Positions 3,390 through 10,108 of a DNA stretch of 38,649 nucleotides are shown here, piece after piece. The stretch is taken from NCBI GenBank assembly GCA_041164045.1, contig JBEAQD010000021.1:1-38649 (forward strand). The letters are read 5' to 3'. Within the stretch, counting starts at the first letter, position 1. Every line of letters begins with the position of its first letter. The notes under the pieces are model-generated. The model ran no database searches. It saw only the letters and a program-made list of their open reading frames with translations, and was not told the origin of the DNA. Source of the stretch: Candidatus Parcubacteria bacterium (GTDB taxonomy: Bacteria; Patescibacteriota; Minisyncoccia; SW-4-49-11). The position numbers and the translations under genes were made by a program.

Positions 3390-5759
3390 ATGCCTCTTGA
3401 ATCCAAATATGAAATCACGGAACGCGAAGCTCATTGGCGAGAATTCTGGGCTAAACAAAATATCTATGCCTTTGATGAAACATCAGACAAACCAATTTTC
3501 TCTGTAGACACTCCCCCGCCTTATGTCTCGGCAGACCACTTACATCCTGGCCATATTATGAGTTATTCTCAAGCTGAATTTGTAGTTAGGTTCAAGCGAA
3601 TGCAAGGCTATAATGTCTTTTATCCCATGGGTTTTGATGATAATGGACTCCCAACTGAGAGACATGTAGAGAAAAAATATAAAATCAAAAATAAAGACTC
3701 TATCAGCAGATCTGAATTTGTAAAATTATGTCTGGAAGAAACTCAAAAAGGCATTCAAACCTATCGTAATCTCTGGTCATTATTGGGAATTTCTGTAGAC
3801 TGGTCAAAGACTTATTCTTCAATCAATACTCACTCTCAGAAAATCTCCCAATGGTCATTTTTAGATTTATATAGGAAGGGTCTTCTCACACAGAGAGAAG
3901 ACCCTATTATGTGGGATATTAGCTTCCAGTCAGCTCTAGCCCAGACCGATTTGGAAGACTCCGAGCAAGACTCCCACTTGAATGACATTGTTTTTACCTC
4001 TCAGGAATCAGGAGAGCAACTCATTATTGCCACCACTAGACCGGAACTTTTACCAGCAGCGGTAGCTTTATTCTTCCACCCTGAAGATAGTCGTTATCAG
4101 CATCTAATAGGAACGAAGGCTATTACTCCAATTTCTGGACATACTGTGCCCATACTCACTGATGAGACAGTAGACAAAGACTTTGGAACTGGCTTGATGA
4201 TGGTTTGTACTTGGGGAGATAGCGAGGATATTGCTAAATGGAAAAAATATAATCTAGAGACTAGGTTGATTTTTAATCAAAAAGGGATTTTGAATGAATT
4301 AGCTGGTAATTATGCTGGTGGACATATTATCAAATTAAGACAATTAATTTTAGAAGATCTAAAAAAGCAGAATTTACTCGTCAAACAAACTCCTATCACC
4401 CATACCGTCCAAGTATCCGAGAGGTCAGGAACTCCGATAGAATTTATCTTGACTAAACAATGGTTTATCAATGTAGTAGAGCATAAAGAAGAATTATTAG
4501 AACAAGGTAAAAAATTACATTGGTATCCTAAGAGAATGTTCTCTATATATGCTGACTGGGTAAGTTCACTCAAATGGGATTGGTGTATTTCTAGACAAAG
4601 ATATTATGGAGTCCCAATTCCAGTCTGGTATCACAAACAAACTGGAGAGATTATAATACCTCAAGAGGACGAATTACCAGTAGACCCAACTGAATATACT
4701 CCTCGCGGGTATAAGGCCGAAGATTTAATACCTGAACAAGATGTATTAGATACTTGGATGACATCATCTATGTCGCCTGAAATTGGAGCGGGTCTAGTAT
4801 CCAACCCTGAGCTTACTGCTAAACTATTCCCATCCAGCCTAAGACCCCAAGCCTTTGAGATTATCCGAACATGGCTATTTTATACAGTCACTAAAGCCTA
4901 TTTTCATCATAATACTCTACCCTTTAGTGATGTGATGATATCTGGACACGGCCTAGATAATCAAGGGCGAAAAATTAGCAAGAGACTTGGAAACTTCACC
5001 CCACCGGAGCAAACTATTGCTAATTACGGAGCTGATGCTATGAGATATTGGGCTACGGGGACAACTTTAGGAGAGAATATTCGCTTCAATGAAGAGGAAA
5101 TCAAAAAAGGTAAGAAAACCGTCAATAAACTATTCAATGCCGGTAAATTCGCTGAAATGCATCTCCAAAACTTCACTTTACCAGATCAAGCTCCAGAATT
5201 AGAGCTAATTGACAAATGGATACTAGCTGAGCTTAATCAAACCATCACTCTTGCTACTGAGAGCTTCGAGCAATATGAATATTACAAAGCCCGAACCGCC
5301 ATAGACCAATTATTCTGGAATAAATTCACTGATTATTATCTCGAGCTGATCAAATATAGATTATATGATGAGACTCCTGAAGGTCAAAACTCCCGTCTAG
5401 CAGCACAATATACTCTGTATGTATATATTAAGAGTTTACTTAAATTATATGCCCCAATTCTGCCATTTATCACCGAAGAGCTGTATCAAGGGCTATTTTT
5501 AGAAAATAATACTCAGAATACCAGCATACATACTTCCAATTGGCCACAAAGCAATACAGCTTGGCAATTATCTGAAGAAGAGAATAATTTAATGACAGAT
5601 ATACTCGCCGTAGTAGAAGCCGTCCGAGCTTATAAATCACAGAATAGCATTTCACTGGGTAAAGAAATTGAAAGTTTTACATACACCTCCACTCAAGATT
5701 TAAGCCCTTATGAAAATTTCCTAGCCAAAGCCCTCAGGGTCGGTAAATTGATGAAGTAG
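3390..5759 (+). CDS. valS: Valine--tRNA ligase, archaeal/compact type
   Basis: 789 aa class I aaRS. HIGH-type motif (HLHPGH), KMSKS-type motif (KISKRLGN), TPPPYVS and GFDDNGLPTE blocks characteristic of the archaeal-like ValRS group. Confidence 0.8.
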   Translation: MPLESKYEITEREAHWREFWAKQNIYAFDETSDKPIFSVDTPPPYVSADHLHPGHIMSYSQAEFVVRFKRMQGYNVFYPMGFDDNGLPTERHVEKKYKIKNKDSISRSEFVKLCLEETQKGIQTYRNLWSLLGISVDWSKTYSSINTHSQKISQWSFLDLYRKGLLTQREDPIMWDISFQSALAQTDLEDSEQDSHLNDIVFTSQESGEQLIIATTRPELLPAAVALFFHPEDSRYQHLIGTKAITPISGHTVPILTDETVDKDFGTGLMMVCTWGDSEDIAKWKKYNLETRLIFNQKGILNELAGNYAGGHIIKLRQLILEDLKKQNLLVKQTPITHTVQVSERSGTPIEFILTKQWFINVVEHKEELLEQGKKLHWYPKRMFSIYADWVSSLKWDWCISRQRYYGVPIPVWYHKQTGEIIIPQEDELPVDPTEYTPRGYKAEDLIPEQDVLDTWMTSSMSPEIGAGLVSNPELTAKLFPSSLRPQAFEIIRTWLFYTVTKAYFHHNTLPFSDVMISGHGLDNQGRKISKRLGNFTPPEQTIANYGADAMRYWATGTTLGENIRFNEEEIKKGKKTVNKLFNAGKFAEMHLQNFTLPDQAPELELIDKWILAELNQTITLATESFEQYEYYKARTAIDQLFWNKFTDYYLELIKYRLYDETPEGQNSRLAAQYTLYVYIKSLLKLYAPILPFITEELYQGLFLENNTQNTSIHTSNWPQSNTAWQLSEEENNLMTDILAVVEAVRAYKSQNSISLGKEIESFTYTSTQDLSPYENFLAKALRVGKLMK

Positions 5760-5794
5760 GAATATAAAATTTGTAGTGGAGAGTTTTGTATTAT

Positions 5795-5945
5795 TATCCC
5801 TCTTTGGAGAGGGGTAACCGCTTGCTGTGGGTGTGGATAGAATGAAATCTTTAGCTCAATCCACCTCCGGCCACTCCCGTATAAATACGGCAGTGACCAC
5901 CTCCTCCAAAGGAGGATAGTTTATATAACTTTTCCCTACGATTTA
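5795..5945. repeat. GC-rich mosaic hairpin repeat locus R2
   Basis: The 49-nt block at 5795-5843 matches 9722-9770 with 2 mismatches. It is followed by GTGGAT..ATCCAC, CACCTCCTCCAAAGGAGGA and a CCCTACGAT end motif shared with 10097-10108. Confidence 0.8.
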
Positions 5946-5951
5946 ACAACC

Positions 5952-5980
5952 GAAAAAGGCACTGACAAACGATCAGTGCC
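5952..5980 (-). terminator. Rho-independent terminator downstream of the tRNA-like pair
   Basis: Minus strand GGCACUGA-loop-UCAGUGCC followed by UUUUUCG. A second hairpin, GAGGGAUUUGUCCCUC at about 5997-6012, precedes it. Confidence 0.6.
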
Positions 5981-6017
5981 AAAAAAAATGAATTATAGAG
6001 GGACAAATCCCTCATAA

Positions 6018-6086
6018 TCGGAGCGGCAGGATTTGAACCTACACCCCCTGCATTGCAGGTGCACTACCGAGCTATGCTACGCCCCG
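6018..6086 (-). tRNA. tRNA-like gene, tRNA-Ala-like body with a truncated anticodon loop (no assignable anticodon)
   Basis: Minus strand: CGGGGCG UA GCAU AGCUCGGUA GUGC A CCUGC AAU GCAGG GGGU GUAGG UUCAAAU CCUGC CGCUCCG A. The acceptor, D and T arms fold normally. The CCUGC/GCAGG anticodon stem closes only 3 nt. Confidence 0.55.
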
Positions 6087-6092
6087 ATGGAA

Positions 6093-6164
6093 CGCGGAGG
6101 GGTGGAATCGAACCCCCAACAATTGGGTTGTAGTTGCCCAACTGTCCTACCAGAGGACCCCCGC
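6093..6164 (-). tRNA. tRNA-like gene with a 9-nt anticodon loop, elongated anticodon stem and miniature D arm
   Basis: Minus strand: GCGGGGG / UCCU CUGGU AGGA / (CAG)UUGGG CAACUACAA CCCAA(UUG) / UU / GGGGG UUCGAUU CCACC / CCUCCGC G. Acceptor stem has one G-U. The T loop is canonical but the T stem has a G-A mismatch. No standard 7-nt anticodon loop can be drawn. Confidence 0.5.
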
Positions 6165-6178
6165 ATGAACCGCATATA

Positions 6179-6206
6179 ATTATACTTATATTTATAAATT
6201 TGTCAA
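6179..6206 (-). promoter_or_regulatory. Consensus sigma70 promoter driving the tRNA-like pair
   Basis: Minus strand TTGACA (6206-6201), 16-nt spacer, TATAAT (6184-6179). The first tRNA-like gene begins about 14 nt downstream. Confidence 0.65.
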
Positions 6207-6273: not shown

Positions 6274-6546
6274 TTAGTCTGGAGTAGGCCTACCAACCAA
6301 ATAAACAATATTGTTGGGATGTTGGGAGCGATGTTGAGAATATAAATTATCCAAAAAGAATTGCCAAGCAGCTTGGAATATAGGGTTTCTCTGAATAAAT
6401 TTTATATCTATACCTGATTCTAAACCTCTTTGTAGAGTTAAATGAATTAGATCACCCAAAACTTGATAATGATATCTATTATTAGGATACCTAATACAAT
6501 ATTGATATGCTAATTCTAACTGAGAAAAATCAGCTAACCTTTTCAT
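6274..6546 (-). CDS. Small hypothetical protein, paralog A (about 90 aa, C-terminal RPTP motif)
   Basis: Start taken at the ATG 6 nt after a GAGG Shine-Dalgarno. An in-frame GVG-position start (GTG at 6570) is an alternative. The ORF-track start at 6603 lies upstream of the predicted -10. Promoter, leader, N-terminus and C-terminus (LVGRPTPD) parallel 7414..7689. Confidence 0.5.
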   Translation of the reverse strand: MKRLADFSQLELAYQYCIRYPNNRYHYQVLGDLIHLTLQRGLESGIDIKFIQRNPIFQAAWQFFLDNLYSQHRSQHPNNIVYLVGRPTPD

Positions 6547-6574
6547 CCCAAACCTCGATGCAAAGGACACTATT

Positions 6575-6603
6575 TTTATAAGATATAATATTTTAATCTG
6601 CAA
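6575..6603 (-). promoter_or_regulatory. Promoter of cassette A
   Basis: Minus strand TTGCAG-17-TATAAA, followed by the conserved leader AATAGTGTCCTTTGCATCGAGGTTTGGGATG. Homologous to 7718-7746. Confidence 0.55.
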
Positions 6604-7413: not shown

Positions 7414-7689
7414 TTAGGAAGGAGTAGGCCTAGATACGAGGAAATTGCTTTTTCTTGTATCTTGAGCTGTTGGGGTAGTCTTAGCAAGAATTTCACATGC
7501 TTGTCCGAGTACGGGGTACTGATCGAACAGGGTGGACAGTACTTGAACATTTTGCTCTCCCATTGTACTCACATACCGAAAAACATTGATGACTTGATCA
7601 TAAAGGGTTTTACCGTCATCAACTGAGTGAGATAGAATGTACTTATCGTAAGCACAAGAAACTTTAGAAACTAGAGAATTGAAATTCAT
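7414..7689 (-). CDS. Small hypothetical protein, paralog B (about 91 aa, C-terminal RPTP motif)
   Basis: Start at the ATG 6 nt after GAGG. The alternative in-frame ATG at 7713 sits only 4 nt after the -10. Ends LVSRPTPS. Shares promoter and leader architecture with 6274..6546. Confidence 0.5.
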   Translation of the reverse strand: MNFNSLVSKVSCAYDKYILSHSVDDGKTLYDQVINVFRYVSTMGEQNVQVLSTLFDQYPVLGQACEILAKTTPTAQDTRKSNFLVSRPTPS

Positions 7690-7717
7690 CCCAAACCTCA
7701 ACTTGAAGGACATTATT

Positions 7718-9587: not shown

Positions 9588-10108
9588 TCTCCCGTAGCGG
9601 AGGCTTTTTACCCCCTCTCATACATCGTTTGTGAGGGGGGCGATCTTTGTTCTAAAAATTCCCCTCTCCTCCCAAGGCGGATTTCATTGAGGGGTGCTCA
9701 TAGGGCGGGGTGGATGCATTTTATCCCTCTTTGGAGAGGGGGAACCGCTTGCGGTGGGTGTGGATAGAATTTACAATTCAAAATCTATAATGTATAACTA
9801 CAGATCAACTATTCCACCCCGTCCTCTCCTAAACAAAAGTATAGGAGGGACCACCCCTCAAGGAGGGGAATTTAGCTCAGTCCACATCGTCCATAAAGGT
9901 CATCTACTCCAAAGGGAGACAAAAATCTCAAATACCCTGTCCCCCTTTGGAGGGGGAAGCCTGCAAGGCGGGGGTGGATAAAACATAAGCTAGAGCTCAA
10001 TCCACCACCGGCACTCCGTGCCACCTCCTCCAAAGGAGGACAAAGTAAAAAACCATGGGCGACTGAAAGGTTGAGTACATCCGCCTCGGGCGTGACGCCC
10101 CTACGATC
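9588..10108. repeat. GC-rich mosaic hairpin repeat locus R3 (largest, about 520 bp)
   Basis: Concatenated hairpin modules. Shared blocks: 9722-9770 with R2; 9907-9926 identical to 31715-31734; 9939-9978 with 31610-31650; 9652-9700 inverted copy of 15824-15867. The end motif GGCGACTGAAAGG...CGCCCCTACGAT relates to the R4 TIR. Confidence 0.8.

What the first reader, a model, noticed from the sequence alone, without database searches (positions are those of the whole stretch)
6018..6206. Two tandem, apparently expressed tRNA-like genes with non-canonical anticodon arms
Both minus-strand elements have 7-bp acceptor stems and canonical T loops (GGUUCAAAUCC and GGUUCGAUUCC).

The downstream one (6018-6086):
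- It carries the tRNA-Ala-like anticodon stem CCUGC/GCAGG, but the stem closes only a 3-nt loop (AAU).
- It is exactly 4 nt shorter than a normal tRNA and has no anticodon.
- Its G-U pair sits at 4:69 rather than 3:70.

The upstream one (6093-6164):
- It has a 5-nt D loop on a 4-bp stem that abuts the acceptor stem.
- Its anticodon helix can extend to 8-9 bp.
- It has a 9-nt loop, CAACUACAA.
- Its variable region is only 2 nt.

The pair has a near-perfect TTGACA-16-TATAAT promoter and two tandem terminators, which argues against dead pseudogenes. Possible roles:
- tRNA-derived regulatory or decoy RNAs
- substrates or primers for an unknown enzyme
- non-translational aminoacyl donors
- highly unusual decoders
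Basis: seen in the sequence. Interest (0 to 1): 0.65.

Follow-up and report, generated by a model that had tools for sequence, protein, structure and literature searches.

The report
Anticodon-less tRNA mimics in CPR bacterium
A tiny freshwater bacterium carries, behind a textbook promoter, two RNAs shaped like transfer RNAs that cannot read codons (one is a proline tRNA whose anticodon loop is replaced by a 3-base cap); relatives keep the tRNA shape but freely swap the lower arm, so these look like working tRNA mimics of unknown role and not dead genes.

Summary
On the minus strand, a perfect TTGACA-16-TATAAT promoter drives two tRNA-shaped genes, A (6093-6164) and B (6018-6086), followed by a conserved hairpin and a terminator.

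- **B:** a tRNA-Pro body (C1-G72, A73, intact D/T core) whose 7-nt anticodon loop is a 3-nt cap.
- **A:** a compact tRNA-like RNA with a 9-bp lower helix and a 9-nt loop.

The genome is a freshwater CPR (Paceibacteria) MAG. Fourteen related operons, all convergent with valS where the valS flank was recovered, have the same layout.

- **Loops:** none of the 14 in-group B elements has a 7-nt loop. They carry UUCG, UACG, UUAG, ACAU, AAU or UAU caps, or inserts of 35-95 nt.
- **Structure:** B's stems are 98.6% paired, and 10 of 21 pairs show compensatory changes.
- **Conservation:** B is 60-96% identical, while valS four-fold sites are 37-75% identical.
- **Outgroups:** forms at 64-66% ValRS identity keep only the acceptor/T-arm half, with CCA encoded.
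- **Turnover:** A/B allele types do not follow the valS tree, which indicates cassette exchange.

They are selected, non-decoding tRNA mimics. My best guess is that they act through the acceptor/T-arm half as decoys or competitors. I could not test expression, maturation or function.

The parts
6179..6206 (-). Sigma-70-type promoter: TTGACA, 16-nt spacer, TATAAT
   Evidence: 12 of 12 consensus matches. The promoter plus the ATATRCGG leader is 82-93% identical across the 14 operons, against about 60% for the 40 nt upstream.
6165..6173 (-). Short 5' leader (GCGGUUCAU). The transcription start near 6172-6173 is inferred from the spacing to the -10 box.
   Evidence: Sequence. The leader motif TATAAT-N-ATATRCGG occurs once in the window, with 0.06 expected by chance. 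It is conserved in relatives.
6093..6164 (-). Element A: a compact tRNA-like RNA. It has a 7-bp acceptor stem, a small D arm, a 9-bp lower helix with the 9-nt loop CAACUACAA, a T arm GGGGG-UUCGAUU-CCACC with one G-A mismatch, and discriminator G.
   Evidence: Rfam tRNA 22 bits, below cutoff. The minimum-energy fold is cloverleaf-like. Same-type elements stand at the same operon position in L004 and L005. The A elements of L004, L184, L187 and L189 pass the Rfam cutoff.
6087..6092 (-). 6-nt spacer (UUCCAU) between A and B
   Evidence: Sequence. Relatives have spacers of 5-9 nt.
6018..6086 (-). Element B: a tRNA-Pro-derived RNA without an anticodon. It has C1-G72, G4-U69 and A73, the D arm GCAU/GUGC with a 9-nt loop, the stub arm CCUGC-AAU-GCAGG, a 4-nt variable loop, and the T arm GUAGG-UUCAAAU-CCUGC. 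No CCA is encoded.
   Evidence: Rfam tRNA 49.8 bits with a 3-nt loop. The custom model gives 78.5 bits. Covariation supports the fold. It is conserved well above the neutral level. It shares its 3' half and anticodon stem with genuine tRNA-Pro(UGG) genes.
5998..6013 (-). Conserved trailer hairpin GAGGGAUUUGUCCCUC, followed by the box UAUAAUUCA and a U8 run (5981-5988)
   Evidence: Fold. The sequence is conserved in the six genomes of subclade I.
5953..5980 (-). Intrinsic terminator: a 9-bp stem GGCACUGAU/GUCAGUGCC followed by a U run
   Evidence: Terminator scan. The trailer fold has z=-6.3. The stem shows compensatory changes in relatives.

Best explanation
A and B are two co-transcribed, tRNA-derived RNAs that natural selection keeps tRNA-shaped but that cannot decode.

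**What they are**
- B is a paralogue of tRNA-Pro. It keeps the acceptor stem (C1-G72, A73), the D arm, the T arm and the tertiary-core nucleotides. Its anticodon loop has been replaced by an inert cap: AAU here, and UUCG/UACG-type tetraloops or large hairpin inserts in relatives.
- A is a fast-turnover partner. Only its acceptor/T-arm 'top half' is kept constant.

**Inferred maturation (not shown)**
- The transcript starts about 8 nt before A.
- RNase P and RNase Z probably cut out the two RNAs. The CCA-adding enzyme would then tail them, because no CCA is encoded.

**Inferred action**
- They probably act through the acceptor/T-arm half as tRNA mimics.
- My leading specific reading is a decoy or competitor. 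It would occupy a protein that reads tRNA acceptor ends or elbows, for instance an enzyme or toxin that targets acceptor ends, or tRNA-Pro-specific factors.
- The lower arm is free to vary, and the alleles behave as an exchangeable cassette.

**My confidence**
- About 0.85 that they are selected, non-decoding tRNA mimics.
- About 0.3 for the decoy/competitor mechanism specifically.
For: **Shown**
- Both elements fold as tRNA-like cloverleaves.
- The operon layout (consensus promoter, leader, A, B, terminator) recurs in 14 operons of one Paceibacteria clade.
- None of the 14 in-group B elements has a 7-nt loop.
- B stems: 98.6% of cells are paired, against 42-52% when the partners are slid. 10 of 21 pairs carry double changes, including 3 of 5 in the stub stem. 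0 of 500 shuffles reach the observed values.
- B is 60-96% identical (mean 78%) between genomes whose valS four-fold sites are 37-75% identical (mean 51%, saturation about 30%). For window vs L005 the figures are 90% against 41%.
- The tertiary-core positions U8, A14, G15, G18-G19, T54-Psi55-C56 and A58 are invariant in B.
- Genuine tRNA-Pro(UGG) genes share B's 3' half and its CCUGC/GCAGG stem, but with the loop UUUGGGA.
- Outgroups at 64-66% ValRS identity keep the acceptor stem, A73, an encoded CCA and the T arm. In L193 the D and anticodon arms are plain hairpins.
- All 20 variants keep a 6-7/7 acceptor stem and a 3-5/5 T stem.
- Allele types do not follow the valS tree. L187 and L189 are 95.5% identical at neutral sites and have identical B, yet A's lower arm differs by at least 7 events in 30 nt. 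L002 and L006 have identical A at 74% neutral identity.

**Inferred**
- Processing and CCA addition follow from established knowledge that RNase P, RNase Z and the CCA-adding enzyme recognise the acceptor/T-arm half.
- A real tRNA-Pro must exist elsewhere, because valS alone uses 38 CCN codons.
Against: - There is no expression evidence: no RNA run holds the stretch.
- No partner protein was identified. The window is ordinary core chromosome. The PADLOC search and a fold search of the neighbouring small ORF gave nothing.
- Gene conversion from a genuine tRNA-Pro gene could in principle mimic purifying selection on B. It would not explain the conserved promoter or the compensatory changes in the stub stem.
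- I put the B alignment in register by hand, using N padding. That favours the structure somewhat.
- The window's own A scores below the Rfam cutoff.
- The decoy reading rests only on the pattern of variation.
Confidence: 0.55

Rival explanations
1. Scaffold or punctuation. The tRNA shapes serve only as RNase P/RNase Z processing signals and as stabilising scaffolds. The working part would be what they flank or display. One candidate is the conserved 3' trailer: a hairpin, an AAYUCAA box and the terminator, comparable to a 3'ETS-type small RNA. The other is the hairpins inserted in the lower arm, which would make this a natural 'tRNA scaffold'.
For: - The trailer is 72-75% identical within subclades and shares an AAYUCAA box just before the terminator.
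- The trailer fold has z=-6.3.
- The long B forms in L001, L010 and L002 all display a palindromic GGCGCC in a hairpin loop.
Against: - Most B alleles carry only an inert 3-4-nt cap, so they display nothing.
- The leader is only about 8 nt in the window, so there is nothing upstream to release.
- Full conservation of B's D arm and tertiary core goes beyond what RNase P or RNase Z needs.
- Two tRNA-like units would be redundant as punctuation.
Confidence: 0.2
2. Non-ribosomal aminoacyl carriers. Synthetases that read the acceptor end would charge A and/or B: ProRS through A73 and G72, or another enzyme. The charged RNAs would then donate the amino acid to a non-ribosomal transferase acting on cell wall, lipid or peptide. 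Lacking an anticodon, they would stay out of translation.
For: - C1-G72 and A73, the acceptor identity set of bacterial tRNA-Pro (my own knowledge), are invariant in every short B, in L002 and in all three outgroup forms.
- The outgroup forms encode CCA.
- Staphylococcal non-proteinogenic tRNA-Gly is a precedent (my own knowledge).
Against: - Bacterial ProRS also depends strongly on G35 and G36 (my own knowledge), and these are absent.
- The long B forms of L001 and L010 have G1-C72.
- A switches between Val-like, Gly-like and Leu/Ser-like bodies in close relatives. That is hard to reconcile with a fixed amino-acid cargo.
- No transferase gene lies nearby.
Confidence: 0.15
3. Decaying pseudogenes. 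These are redundant tRNA-Val/Leu and tRNA-Pro isoacceptor genes in a shrinking genome. They look conserved only because the loss was recent or because gene conversion from intact paralogues keeps them similar.
For: - A is canonical or nearly so in some relatives: Val-CAC in L121 and Val-GAC in L001.
- Other CPR genomes have normal tRNAs next to valS, in L035 and L038.
- CPR genomes are reduced.
Against: - Neutral sites are near saturation while B keeps 60-96% identity and 98.6% pairing, with compensatory changes even in the stub stem.
- The consensus promoter and the terminator are conserved.
- Related forms persist in outgroups at 64-66% ValRS identity.
- The caps are often the ultra-stable cUUCGg or cUACGg tetraloops, not random remnants.
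Confidence: 0.05
4. Unusual decoders, or tRNAs repaired after transcription. The odd loops would read codons by a non-standard mechanism, or editing or insertion would restore them.
For: Several A elements can be drawn with 8-9-nt loops. Expanded loops can decode in engineered systems (my own knowledge).
Against: - B's loops of 3-4 nt cannot present an anticodon.
- Loop lengths and sequences are not conserved between near-identical strains.
- U33 and R37 are missing in many loops.
- No bacterial insertional tRNA editing is known (my own knowledge).
Confidence: 0.02

Closest known systems
Canonical bacterial tRNA-Pro (Rfam RF00005; for example the tRNA-Pro(UGG) genes fetched as L195, L196 and L205)
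   Same: The C1-G72 and A73 acceptor end, the D arm with a 9-nt loop, the GGGUC variable loop, the UUCAAAU T loop, and even the CCUGC/GCAGG anticodon stem and the whole 3' half.
   Different: The 7-nt loop UUUGGGA is replaced by AAU, so B has no anticodon and cannot decode. The variable loop is 1 nt shorter in the window copy.
Bacillus cereus tRNAOther (pseudo-tRNA; PMC3399842)
   Same: It is a chromosomal tRNA-derived gene that does not function in translation and has been recruited to another role.
   Different: tRNAOther flanks a genomic island, is embedded in longer regulatory transcripts and is iron-regulated. Here there is a stand-alone two-gene unit with its own consensus promoter about 8 nt upstream, no island, clade-wide conservation and cassette-like allele exchange.
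Bacterial Y RNAs with a tRNA-like domain (YrlA, RF02553; PMC4201824)
   Same: They are non-decoding RNAs that mimic the tRNA D/T elbow and acceptor. The paper reports that tRNA-recognising enzymes process and modify them.
   Different: YrlA is a permuted mimic fused to a Ro60-binding stem and is encoded next to rsr. The Rfam match here is 19 bits against a cutoff of 69, and it spans the junction between A and B. No Ro60 gene is in the window.
mascRNA/MEN-beta tRNA-like RNAs and plant mitochondrial t-elements (PMC8457004; t-elements from my own knowledge)
   Same: They are tRNA-like cloverleaves with a truncated lower arm. RNase P and RNase Z process them, they receive CCA, and they are not used in decoding.
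   Different: Those elements sit at the end of a long functional transcript as end-forming signals, and they are eukaryotic or organellar. Here the tRNA-like RNAs make up essentially the whole transcript.
Streptococcus sRNA SpF41 (RF02435)
   Same: Its Rfam consensus is a tRNA-like acceptor stem and T arm with a 4-nt-loop hairpin at the anticodon position, followed by a terminator.
   Different: The score is 31.8 bits against a cutoff of 52, so B is not a member. SpF41 has an unpaired D region, and no paper I found addresses its function.
tmRNA tRNA-like domain
   Same: An acceptor/T-arm 'top half' is retained while the anticodon arm is replaced by other structure. The long B forms and the outgroup forms look like this.
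   Different: There is no G3:U70, no tag reading frame and no pseudoknots. ARAGORN calls no tmRNA, and Rfam tmRNA scores 7 bits on the T arm only.

Membership tests
Canonical tRNA (RF00005) | Score at or above the Rfam gathering cutoff (29 bits) | tested here: inconclusive
   B scores 49.8 bits and passes. A scores 22 bits and fails.
Canonical tRNA (RF00005) | 7-nt anticodon loop with U33, a 3-nt anticodon and a purine at 37 | tested here: not met
   B has a 3-nt loop (AAU) and A has a 9-nt loop. ARAGORN calls nothing in the window.
Canonical tRNA (RF00005) | 7-bp acceptor stem, 5-bp T stem and a TPsiC-type loop | tested here: met
   B has 7/7 and 5/5 pairs with the loop UUCAAAU. A has 7/7 and 4/5 pairs with the loop UUCGAUU.
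tRNA-Pro isoacceptor | C1-G72 and discriminator A73 | tested here: met
   These are invariant in the 10 short B alleles. They are also present in L002, L192 and L193.
tRNA-Pro isoacceptor | NGG anticodon (G35, G36) | tested here: not met
   B has no anticodon. Genuine relatives have UUUGGGA at this position.
   The window's B has G3-C70 and G4-U69. Pair 4:69 is G-C in 5 of 10 alleles.
tRNA pseudogene | Neutral decay: stems break and divergence matches that of neutral sites | tested here: not met
   98.6% of cells are paired and 10 pairs covary. B averages 78% identity against 51% at four-fold sites.
tmRNA (RF00023) | tRNA-Ala-like domain plus a tag reading frame and pseudoknots | tested here: not met
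   ARAGORN finds no tmRNA. Rfam tmRNA gives only 7.3 bits on a T arm.
YrlA Y RNA (RF02553) | Rfam cutoff of 69 bits, and a neighbouring Ro60 (rsr) gene | tested here: not met
   The match scores 19.1 bits across the A/B junction. No Ro60 domain occurs in the window's ORFs.
SpF41 sRNA (RF02435) | Rfam cutoff of 52 bits | tested here: not met
   The match scores 31.8 bits.
t-element/mascRNA-type processing signal | The tRNA-like fold lies at the end of a longer functional transcript, whose end it defines | tested here: not met
   The consensus promoter lies about 8 nt upstream of A. The only flanking RNA is the trailer of about 65 nt.
t-element/mascRNA-type processing signal | Cleavage by RNase P and RNase Z, then CCA addition | not testable with these tools
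   No RNA data are available. This is inferred only from the intact acceptor/T-arm half.
Non-proteinogenic aminoacyl-carrier tRNA | Charged in vivo and used by a non-ribosomal transferase | not testable with these tools
   There are no charging data. No Fem, MprF or L/F-transferase type gene is in the window.

The most novel reading that the evidence does not exclude
This Paceibacteria clade maintains a dedicated, highly expressed and recombinationally exchangeable locus of 'tRNA top-half' mimics. It would be a previously undescribed class of chromosomal bacterial ncRNA.

In this reading the mimics work in molecular conflict. They would act as decoys that shield real tRNAs, tRNA-Pro above all, from enzymes or toxins of phages, hosts or competitors that target the acceptor end. 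The lower arm and the partner RNA would diversify under arms-race pressure.

Earlier unchecked notes from this scan describe anticodon-less tRNA mimics in phages. If those hold, they would be the other side of the same biology.
Probability: 0.25. Interest if true: 0.85.

Novelty: new variant of a known kind. Interest (0 to 1): 0.66.

Why it matters
Non-decoding tRNA mimics are known only from a few scattered cases, such as tRNAOther, Y RNAs, mascRNA and viral TLSs. Here a whole bacterial lineage with a minimal genome pays to keep and strongly transcribe two such RNAs. The comparative data show which half of the tRNA is being used: the acceptor/T-arm half, and in B the whole core as well. The half that defines a tRNA's normal job has been discarded.

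This gives a clean natural experiment on tRNA functions outside decoding. It also flags a class of genes that standard tRNA finders either miss or mislabel: ARAGORN called relatives 'tRNA-???', Phe, Ile, Cys and Ala. If the conflict reading is right, the locus adds an RNA-based layer to tRNA-centred defence and counter-defence. The cassette-like allele exchange in an otherwise stable core-genome neighbourhood is unusual in itself.

Tried and rejected
- **Known RNA families.** tmRNA, YrlA, SpF41 and other Rfam families all score below their cutoffs.
- **Long B insert as an intron.** Rfam gives no hit on the L001 insert. Removing the insert would not restore a proline anticodon loop (my reading of the sequence).
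- **Promoter/leader scan of metagenome contigs.** It returned 102 stretches, but only L121, L143 and L167 were this operon. The rest were unrelated promoters, mostly from gut bacteria.
- **Viral contigs.** No B-like RNA with a 3-5-nt cap was found. The 13 hits to B's 3' half are tRNA-Pro genes or their 3' portions (normal UUUGGGA-type loops where complete), plus one tRNA with a CAU anticodon.
- **Neighbouring small ORF (6277-6546) as a partner.** It has no Pfam, NCBIfam or PADLOC family. AlphaFold predicts a four-helix bundle (pLDDT 77). It has no significant PDB fold match: the best is a HEPN toxin at E=1.2, and the Rx4-6H motif is not conserved. It lies next to the operon in only about half of the loci.
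- **G4:U69 as an alanine identity mark.** I rejected this because the pair is not conserved.
- **Literature.** Seven searches found no description of such RNAs in CPR bacteria.
Full report
**1. What is in the window**

On the minus strand, a 12/12 consensus promoter precedes two tRNA-shaped genes: TTGACA at 6206-6201, a 16-nt spacer, then TATAAT at 6184-6179.

Element B (6018-6086) matches the Rfam tRNA model at 49.8 bits (cutoff 29, E=6.7e-8). Only 3 nt stand where the 7-nt anticodon loop belongs. Its minimum-energy and centroid folds are the cloverleaf, with the arm CCUGC-AAU-GCAGG.

Element A (6093-6164) reaches only 22 bits. It folds with a 7-bp acceptor stem, a small D arm, a 9-bp lower helix closed by the 9-nt loop CAACUACAA, a variable region of 1-2 nt, and a T arm with one G-A mismatch.

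ARAGORN calls no tRNA in the whole 38.6-kb window.

Downstream lie a conserved hairpin (6013-5998), a U8 run and a canonical terminator (5980-5958). The trailer fold has z=-6.3.

The identical 321 nt occur in contigs of four independent metagenomes (lagoon, pond, freshwater, estuary). The odd loops are therefore not assembly errors.

**2. Organism and context**

The neighbouring gene, convergent with the pair, is a standard short-form valine-tRNA ligase (NCBIfam PRK13208, 978 bits).

I used it as an anchor in GTDB genomes. The window belongs to a freshwater CPR lineage labelled Paceibacteria, Parcubacteria or Minisyncoccia.

The rest of the window is core chromosome: gnd, crtE, cruF/lyeJ/crtD-type genes, uvrA, xseA, efp, polA, ruvC, zwf and suf. 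It holds no mobile element and no obvious tRNA-acting partner.

**3. The locus is a conserved operon with a variable lower half**

I recovered fourteen operons with the same layout. They came from genome contigs, one metagenome scan with the promoter/leader signature, and look-ups of ValRS homologues. The loci are the window, L001, L002, L004, L005, L006, L009, L010, L121, L167, L184, L186, L187 and L189. Where the valS flank was recovered, the operon lies convergent with valS. In L167 I did not find valS within the fetched locus.

The shared layout is TTGACA-type promoter, TATAAT-N-ATATRCGG leader, A, a 5-9-nt spacer, B, then the terminator. None encodes CCA.

None of the 14 B elements has a 7-nt loop. 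Its lower arm takes these forms:
- a 5-bp stem capped by UUCG (L004, L006, L187, L189), UACG (L005, L121, L186), UUAG (L167), ACAU (L009) or AAU (window);
- a 6-bp stem with a UAU triloop (L184);
- a 35-nt hairpin (L002);
- a two-hairpin insert of about 95 nt (L001, L010).

A is even more varied:
- canonical-looking tRNA-Val(CAC) in L121;
- Val(GAC) with U37 in L001;
- Val(UAC) with a weak stem in L010;
- a Val-like body with a 3-bp/3-nt stub in L002 and L006;
- a Gly-like body with a GGC anticodon and U73 in L167;
- an 8-nt loop in L186;
- extended helices with 5-9-nt loops, or a branched arm, in the window, L004, L005, L009, L184, L187 and L189.

**4. B is under structure-preserving selection**

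I aligned ten distinct short B alleles in register, padding the loops with N. On this alignment 98.6% of cells form standard pairs, against 42-52% when the partners are slid by 1-3 columns. Ten of 21 pairs show changes on both sides: 2 in the acceptor stem, 2 in the D stem, 3 in the stub stem and 3 in the T stem. No shuffle out of 500 reaches the observed values.

The tertiary-core positions U8, A14, G15, G18-G19, T54-Psi55-C56 and A58 are invariant.

As a neutral yardstick, valS four-fold degenerate sites are 37-75% identical between the same genomes (mean 51%, saturation about 30%). B is 60-96% identical (mean 78%). For window vs L005 the figures are 41% and 90%.

Promoter plus leader is 82-93% identical, against about 60% for the 40 nt upstream.

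A dead gene would not look like this. One caveat is that I set the alignment register by hand. Another is that gene conversion from an intact tRNA-Pro could imitate constraint, but it would not explain the promoter or the covarying stub stem.

**5. B is a tRNA-Pro derivative**

I searched viral contigs for B's 3' half. Most of the hits were bona fide tRNA-Pro(UGG/GGG) genes. They share C1-G72, A73, the D arm, the variable loop, the T arm and, in several, the CCUGC/GCAGG stem. They carry the normal loop UUUGGGA.

The G4:U69 pair is G-C in half of the alleles.

valS alone uses 38 CCN codons, so a real proline decoder must exist elsewhere. This is an inference.

**6. The family is older than the clade, and its conserved core is the top half**

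A covariance model built from B recovers all B elements at 64-92 bits. It also finds related units convergent with valS in two outgroups whose ValRS is only 64-66% identical.

L192 has two separately promoted units. One has exactly the window's acceptor stem (CGGGGCG...CGCUCCG-A), an encoded CCA, a 6-bp lower stem and a non-canonical 7-nt loop (C33, C37). ARAGORN mislabels it Phe. The other has an insert of about 100 nt.

L193 has one unit. It keeps CGGGACG/CGUCCCG-A-CCA and a T arm, but its D and anticodon arms are plain hairpins.

Across all 20 variants the acceptor stem has 6-7 of 7 pairs and the T stem 3-5 of 5. Every B and outgroup form has A73.

**7. Cassette-like turnover**

A ValRS tree splits the in-group into two subclades, but the A and B allele types are scattered across it.
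- The window (A Leu/Ser-like, B short) is sister to L001 (A Val-GAC, B with the 95-nt insert).
- L009 (B short) is sister to L010 (B with the 95-nt insert).
- The Leu/Ser-like A occurs in both subclades.

Close pairs make the same point.
- L187 and L189 are 95.5% identical at neutral sites and have identical B, yet A's lower arm differs by at least 7 indel or substitution events in about 30 nt.
- L002 and L006 share a 64/64 identical A at 74% neutral identity, but carry different B alleles.

One metagenome also holds a contig in which the conserved promoter and the 3' end of B flank 164 nt in place of the window's 125 nt.

The locus therefore behaves as an exchangeable cassette between conserved ends. 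Only the lower halves evolve faster than the background.

**8. Interpretation**

*Shown.* These are tRNA-derived genes under purifying selection for the tRNA fold, and their anticodon function has been removed. B cannot decode.

*Inferred.* RNase P, RNase Z and the CCA-adding enzyme mature them, since all three read the acceptor/T-arm half. They then act through that half.

I rank the mechanisms as follows.
- **Mimic, decoy or competitor** for a protein that reads tRNA acceptor ends or elbows (about 0.3 on its own). The inert stable caps, the invariant A73 and C1-G72, the high-consensus promoter and the conflict-like allele turnover favour it.
- **Scaffold or punctuation** for the conserved trailer or for displayed hairpins (0.2). 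The trailer's AAYUCAA box and the palindromic GGCGCC loops in the long forms favour it.
- **Non-ribosomal aminoacyl carrier** (0.15). The missing G35/G36 and A's changing identity weaken it.
- **Pseudogenes** (0.05) and **exotic decoders or edited tRNAs** (0.02) are disfavoured.

**9. Comparison with known systems**

No Rfam family other than tRNA reaches its cutoff: SpF41 31.8/52, YrlA 19/69, tmRNA 7/47.

Published analogues are B. cereus tRNAOther (PMC3399842), YrlA Y RNAs (PMC4201824) and mascRNA-type elements (PMC8457004). The elements here work like those in being non-decoding tRNA mimics, but they are not members of those families.

They differ in four ways:
- they are stand-alone units with their own promoter;
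- they occur as a pair;
- they derive from tRNA-Pro with the full core kept;
- they are conserved across a CPR clade with cassette exchange.

Seven literature searches found no description of such RNAs in CPR bacteria.

Earlier notes from this scan report anticodon-less tRNA mimics in phages. They are unchecked and I used them only as leads. A direct search found no B-like capped form on viral contigs.

**10. Verdict**

- **Observation:** confirmed.
- **First reading:** partly supported. The elements are not pseudogenes, but the isotype was wrong, expression is untested and the decoder option is excluded for B.
- **Novelty:** a new variant of a known kind.
- **Interest:** 0.66.

Noticed in passing
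L001:6527-6671, L010 (about 6455-6602), L002:6885-6985 (minus strand): The long forms of B carry inserts of 35-95 nt in place of the anticodon arm. Each displays the palindrome GGCGCC (AGGCGCCU) in a hairpin loop. This could be a kissing-loop or protein-binding motif. It is conserved in three lineages that are not sisters.
   Followed up: partly
window 5794-5838 and 9721-9765 (+): GC-rich hairpin repeat modules give sub-threshold matches to the Rfam 'whalefall-1' motif (26 and 29.7 bits, cutoff 37). They belong to the mosaic intergenic repeats of this genome, and similar modules flank the operon in relatives.
   Followed up: no
window 6277-6546 (-) and 7417-7713 (-): Two paralogous small ORFs (90-99 aa, ending in ...RPTP[DS]) each have their own promoter and terminator. 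Homologues sit beside the tRNA-like operon in about half of the related loci. The window protein is predicted as a four-helix bundle (pLDDT 77), with no family hit and no significant PDB match.
   Followed up: partly
L167:4590-4661 (-): Element A here has a tRNA-Gly-like body with discriminator U73, but its anticodon is GGC (alanine codon GCC) where GCC would be expected, and it has a G2-U71 pair. ARAGORN labels it tRNA-Ala.
   Followed up: no
L001:6682-6753 (-), L121:8126-8197 (-), L010:6609-6680 (-): At the same operon position, three close relatives carry Val-type anticodons with a different first base (GAC, CAC, UAC). All have discriminator G73, whereas the ordinary CPR tRNA-Val in L035 has A73. 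L001 also has U37. Their status as true valine decoders is doubtful.
   Followed up: partly
L192:5095-5170 and 5265-5400 (-); L193:4954-5032 (-): Outgroup relatives of the B family each have their own promoter and terminator and an encoded CCA. The L193 form has lost both the D-arm and anticodon-arm identity. ARAGORN calls the L192 form tRNA-Phe(GAA), although it has a proline-type acceptor stem plus C33 and C37.
   Followed up: partly
L191:2627-3252 (+): In one outgroup, a MazE-like/PIN (VapBC-type) toxin-antitoxin pair occupies the position just downstream of valS, where the in-group has the tRNA-like operon.
   Followed up: no
window 3390-5759 (+): valS is the short (789 aa) PRK13208-type ValRS, which is closest to archaeal-type enzymes. 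DPANN archaeal MAGs appear among its 50% identity homologues.
   Followed up: no
L081, L139-L141, L157, L165 (metagenome contigs): An unrelated set of contigs shares the same promoter/leader signature. It is followed by a structured leader RNA of about 100 nt (GCGGAGCAAGGGCGCAUUGAGGG...) and then a tRNA array.
   Followed up: no
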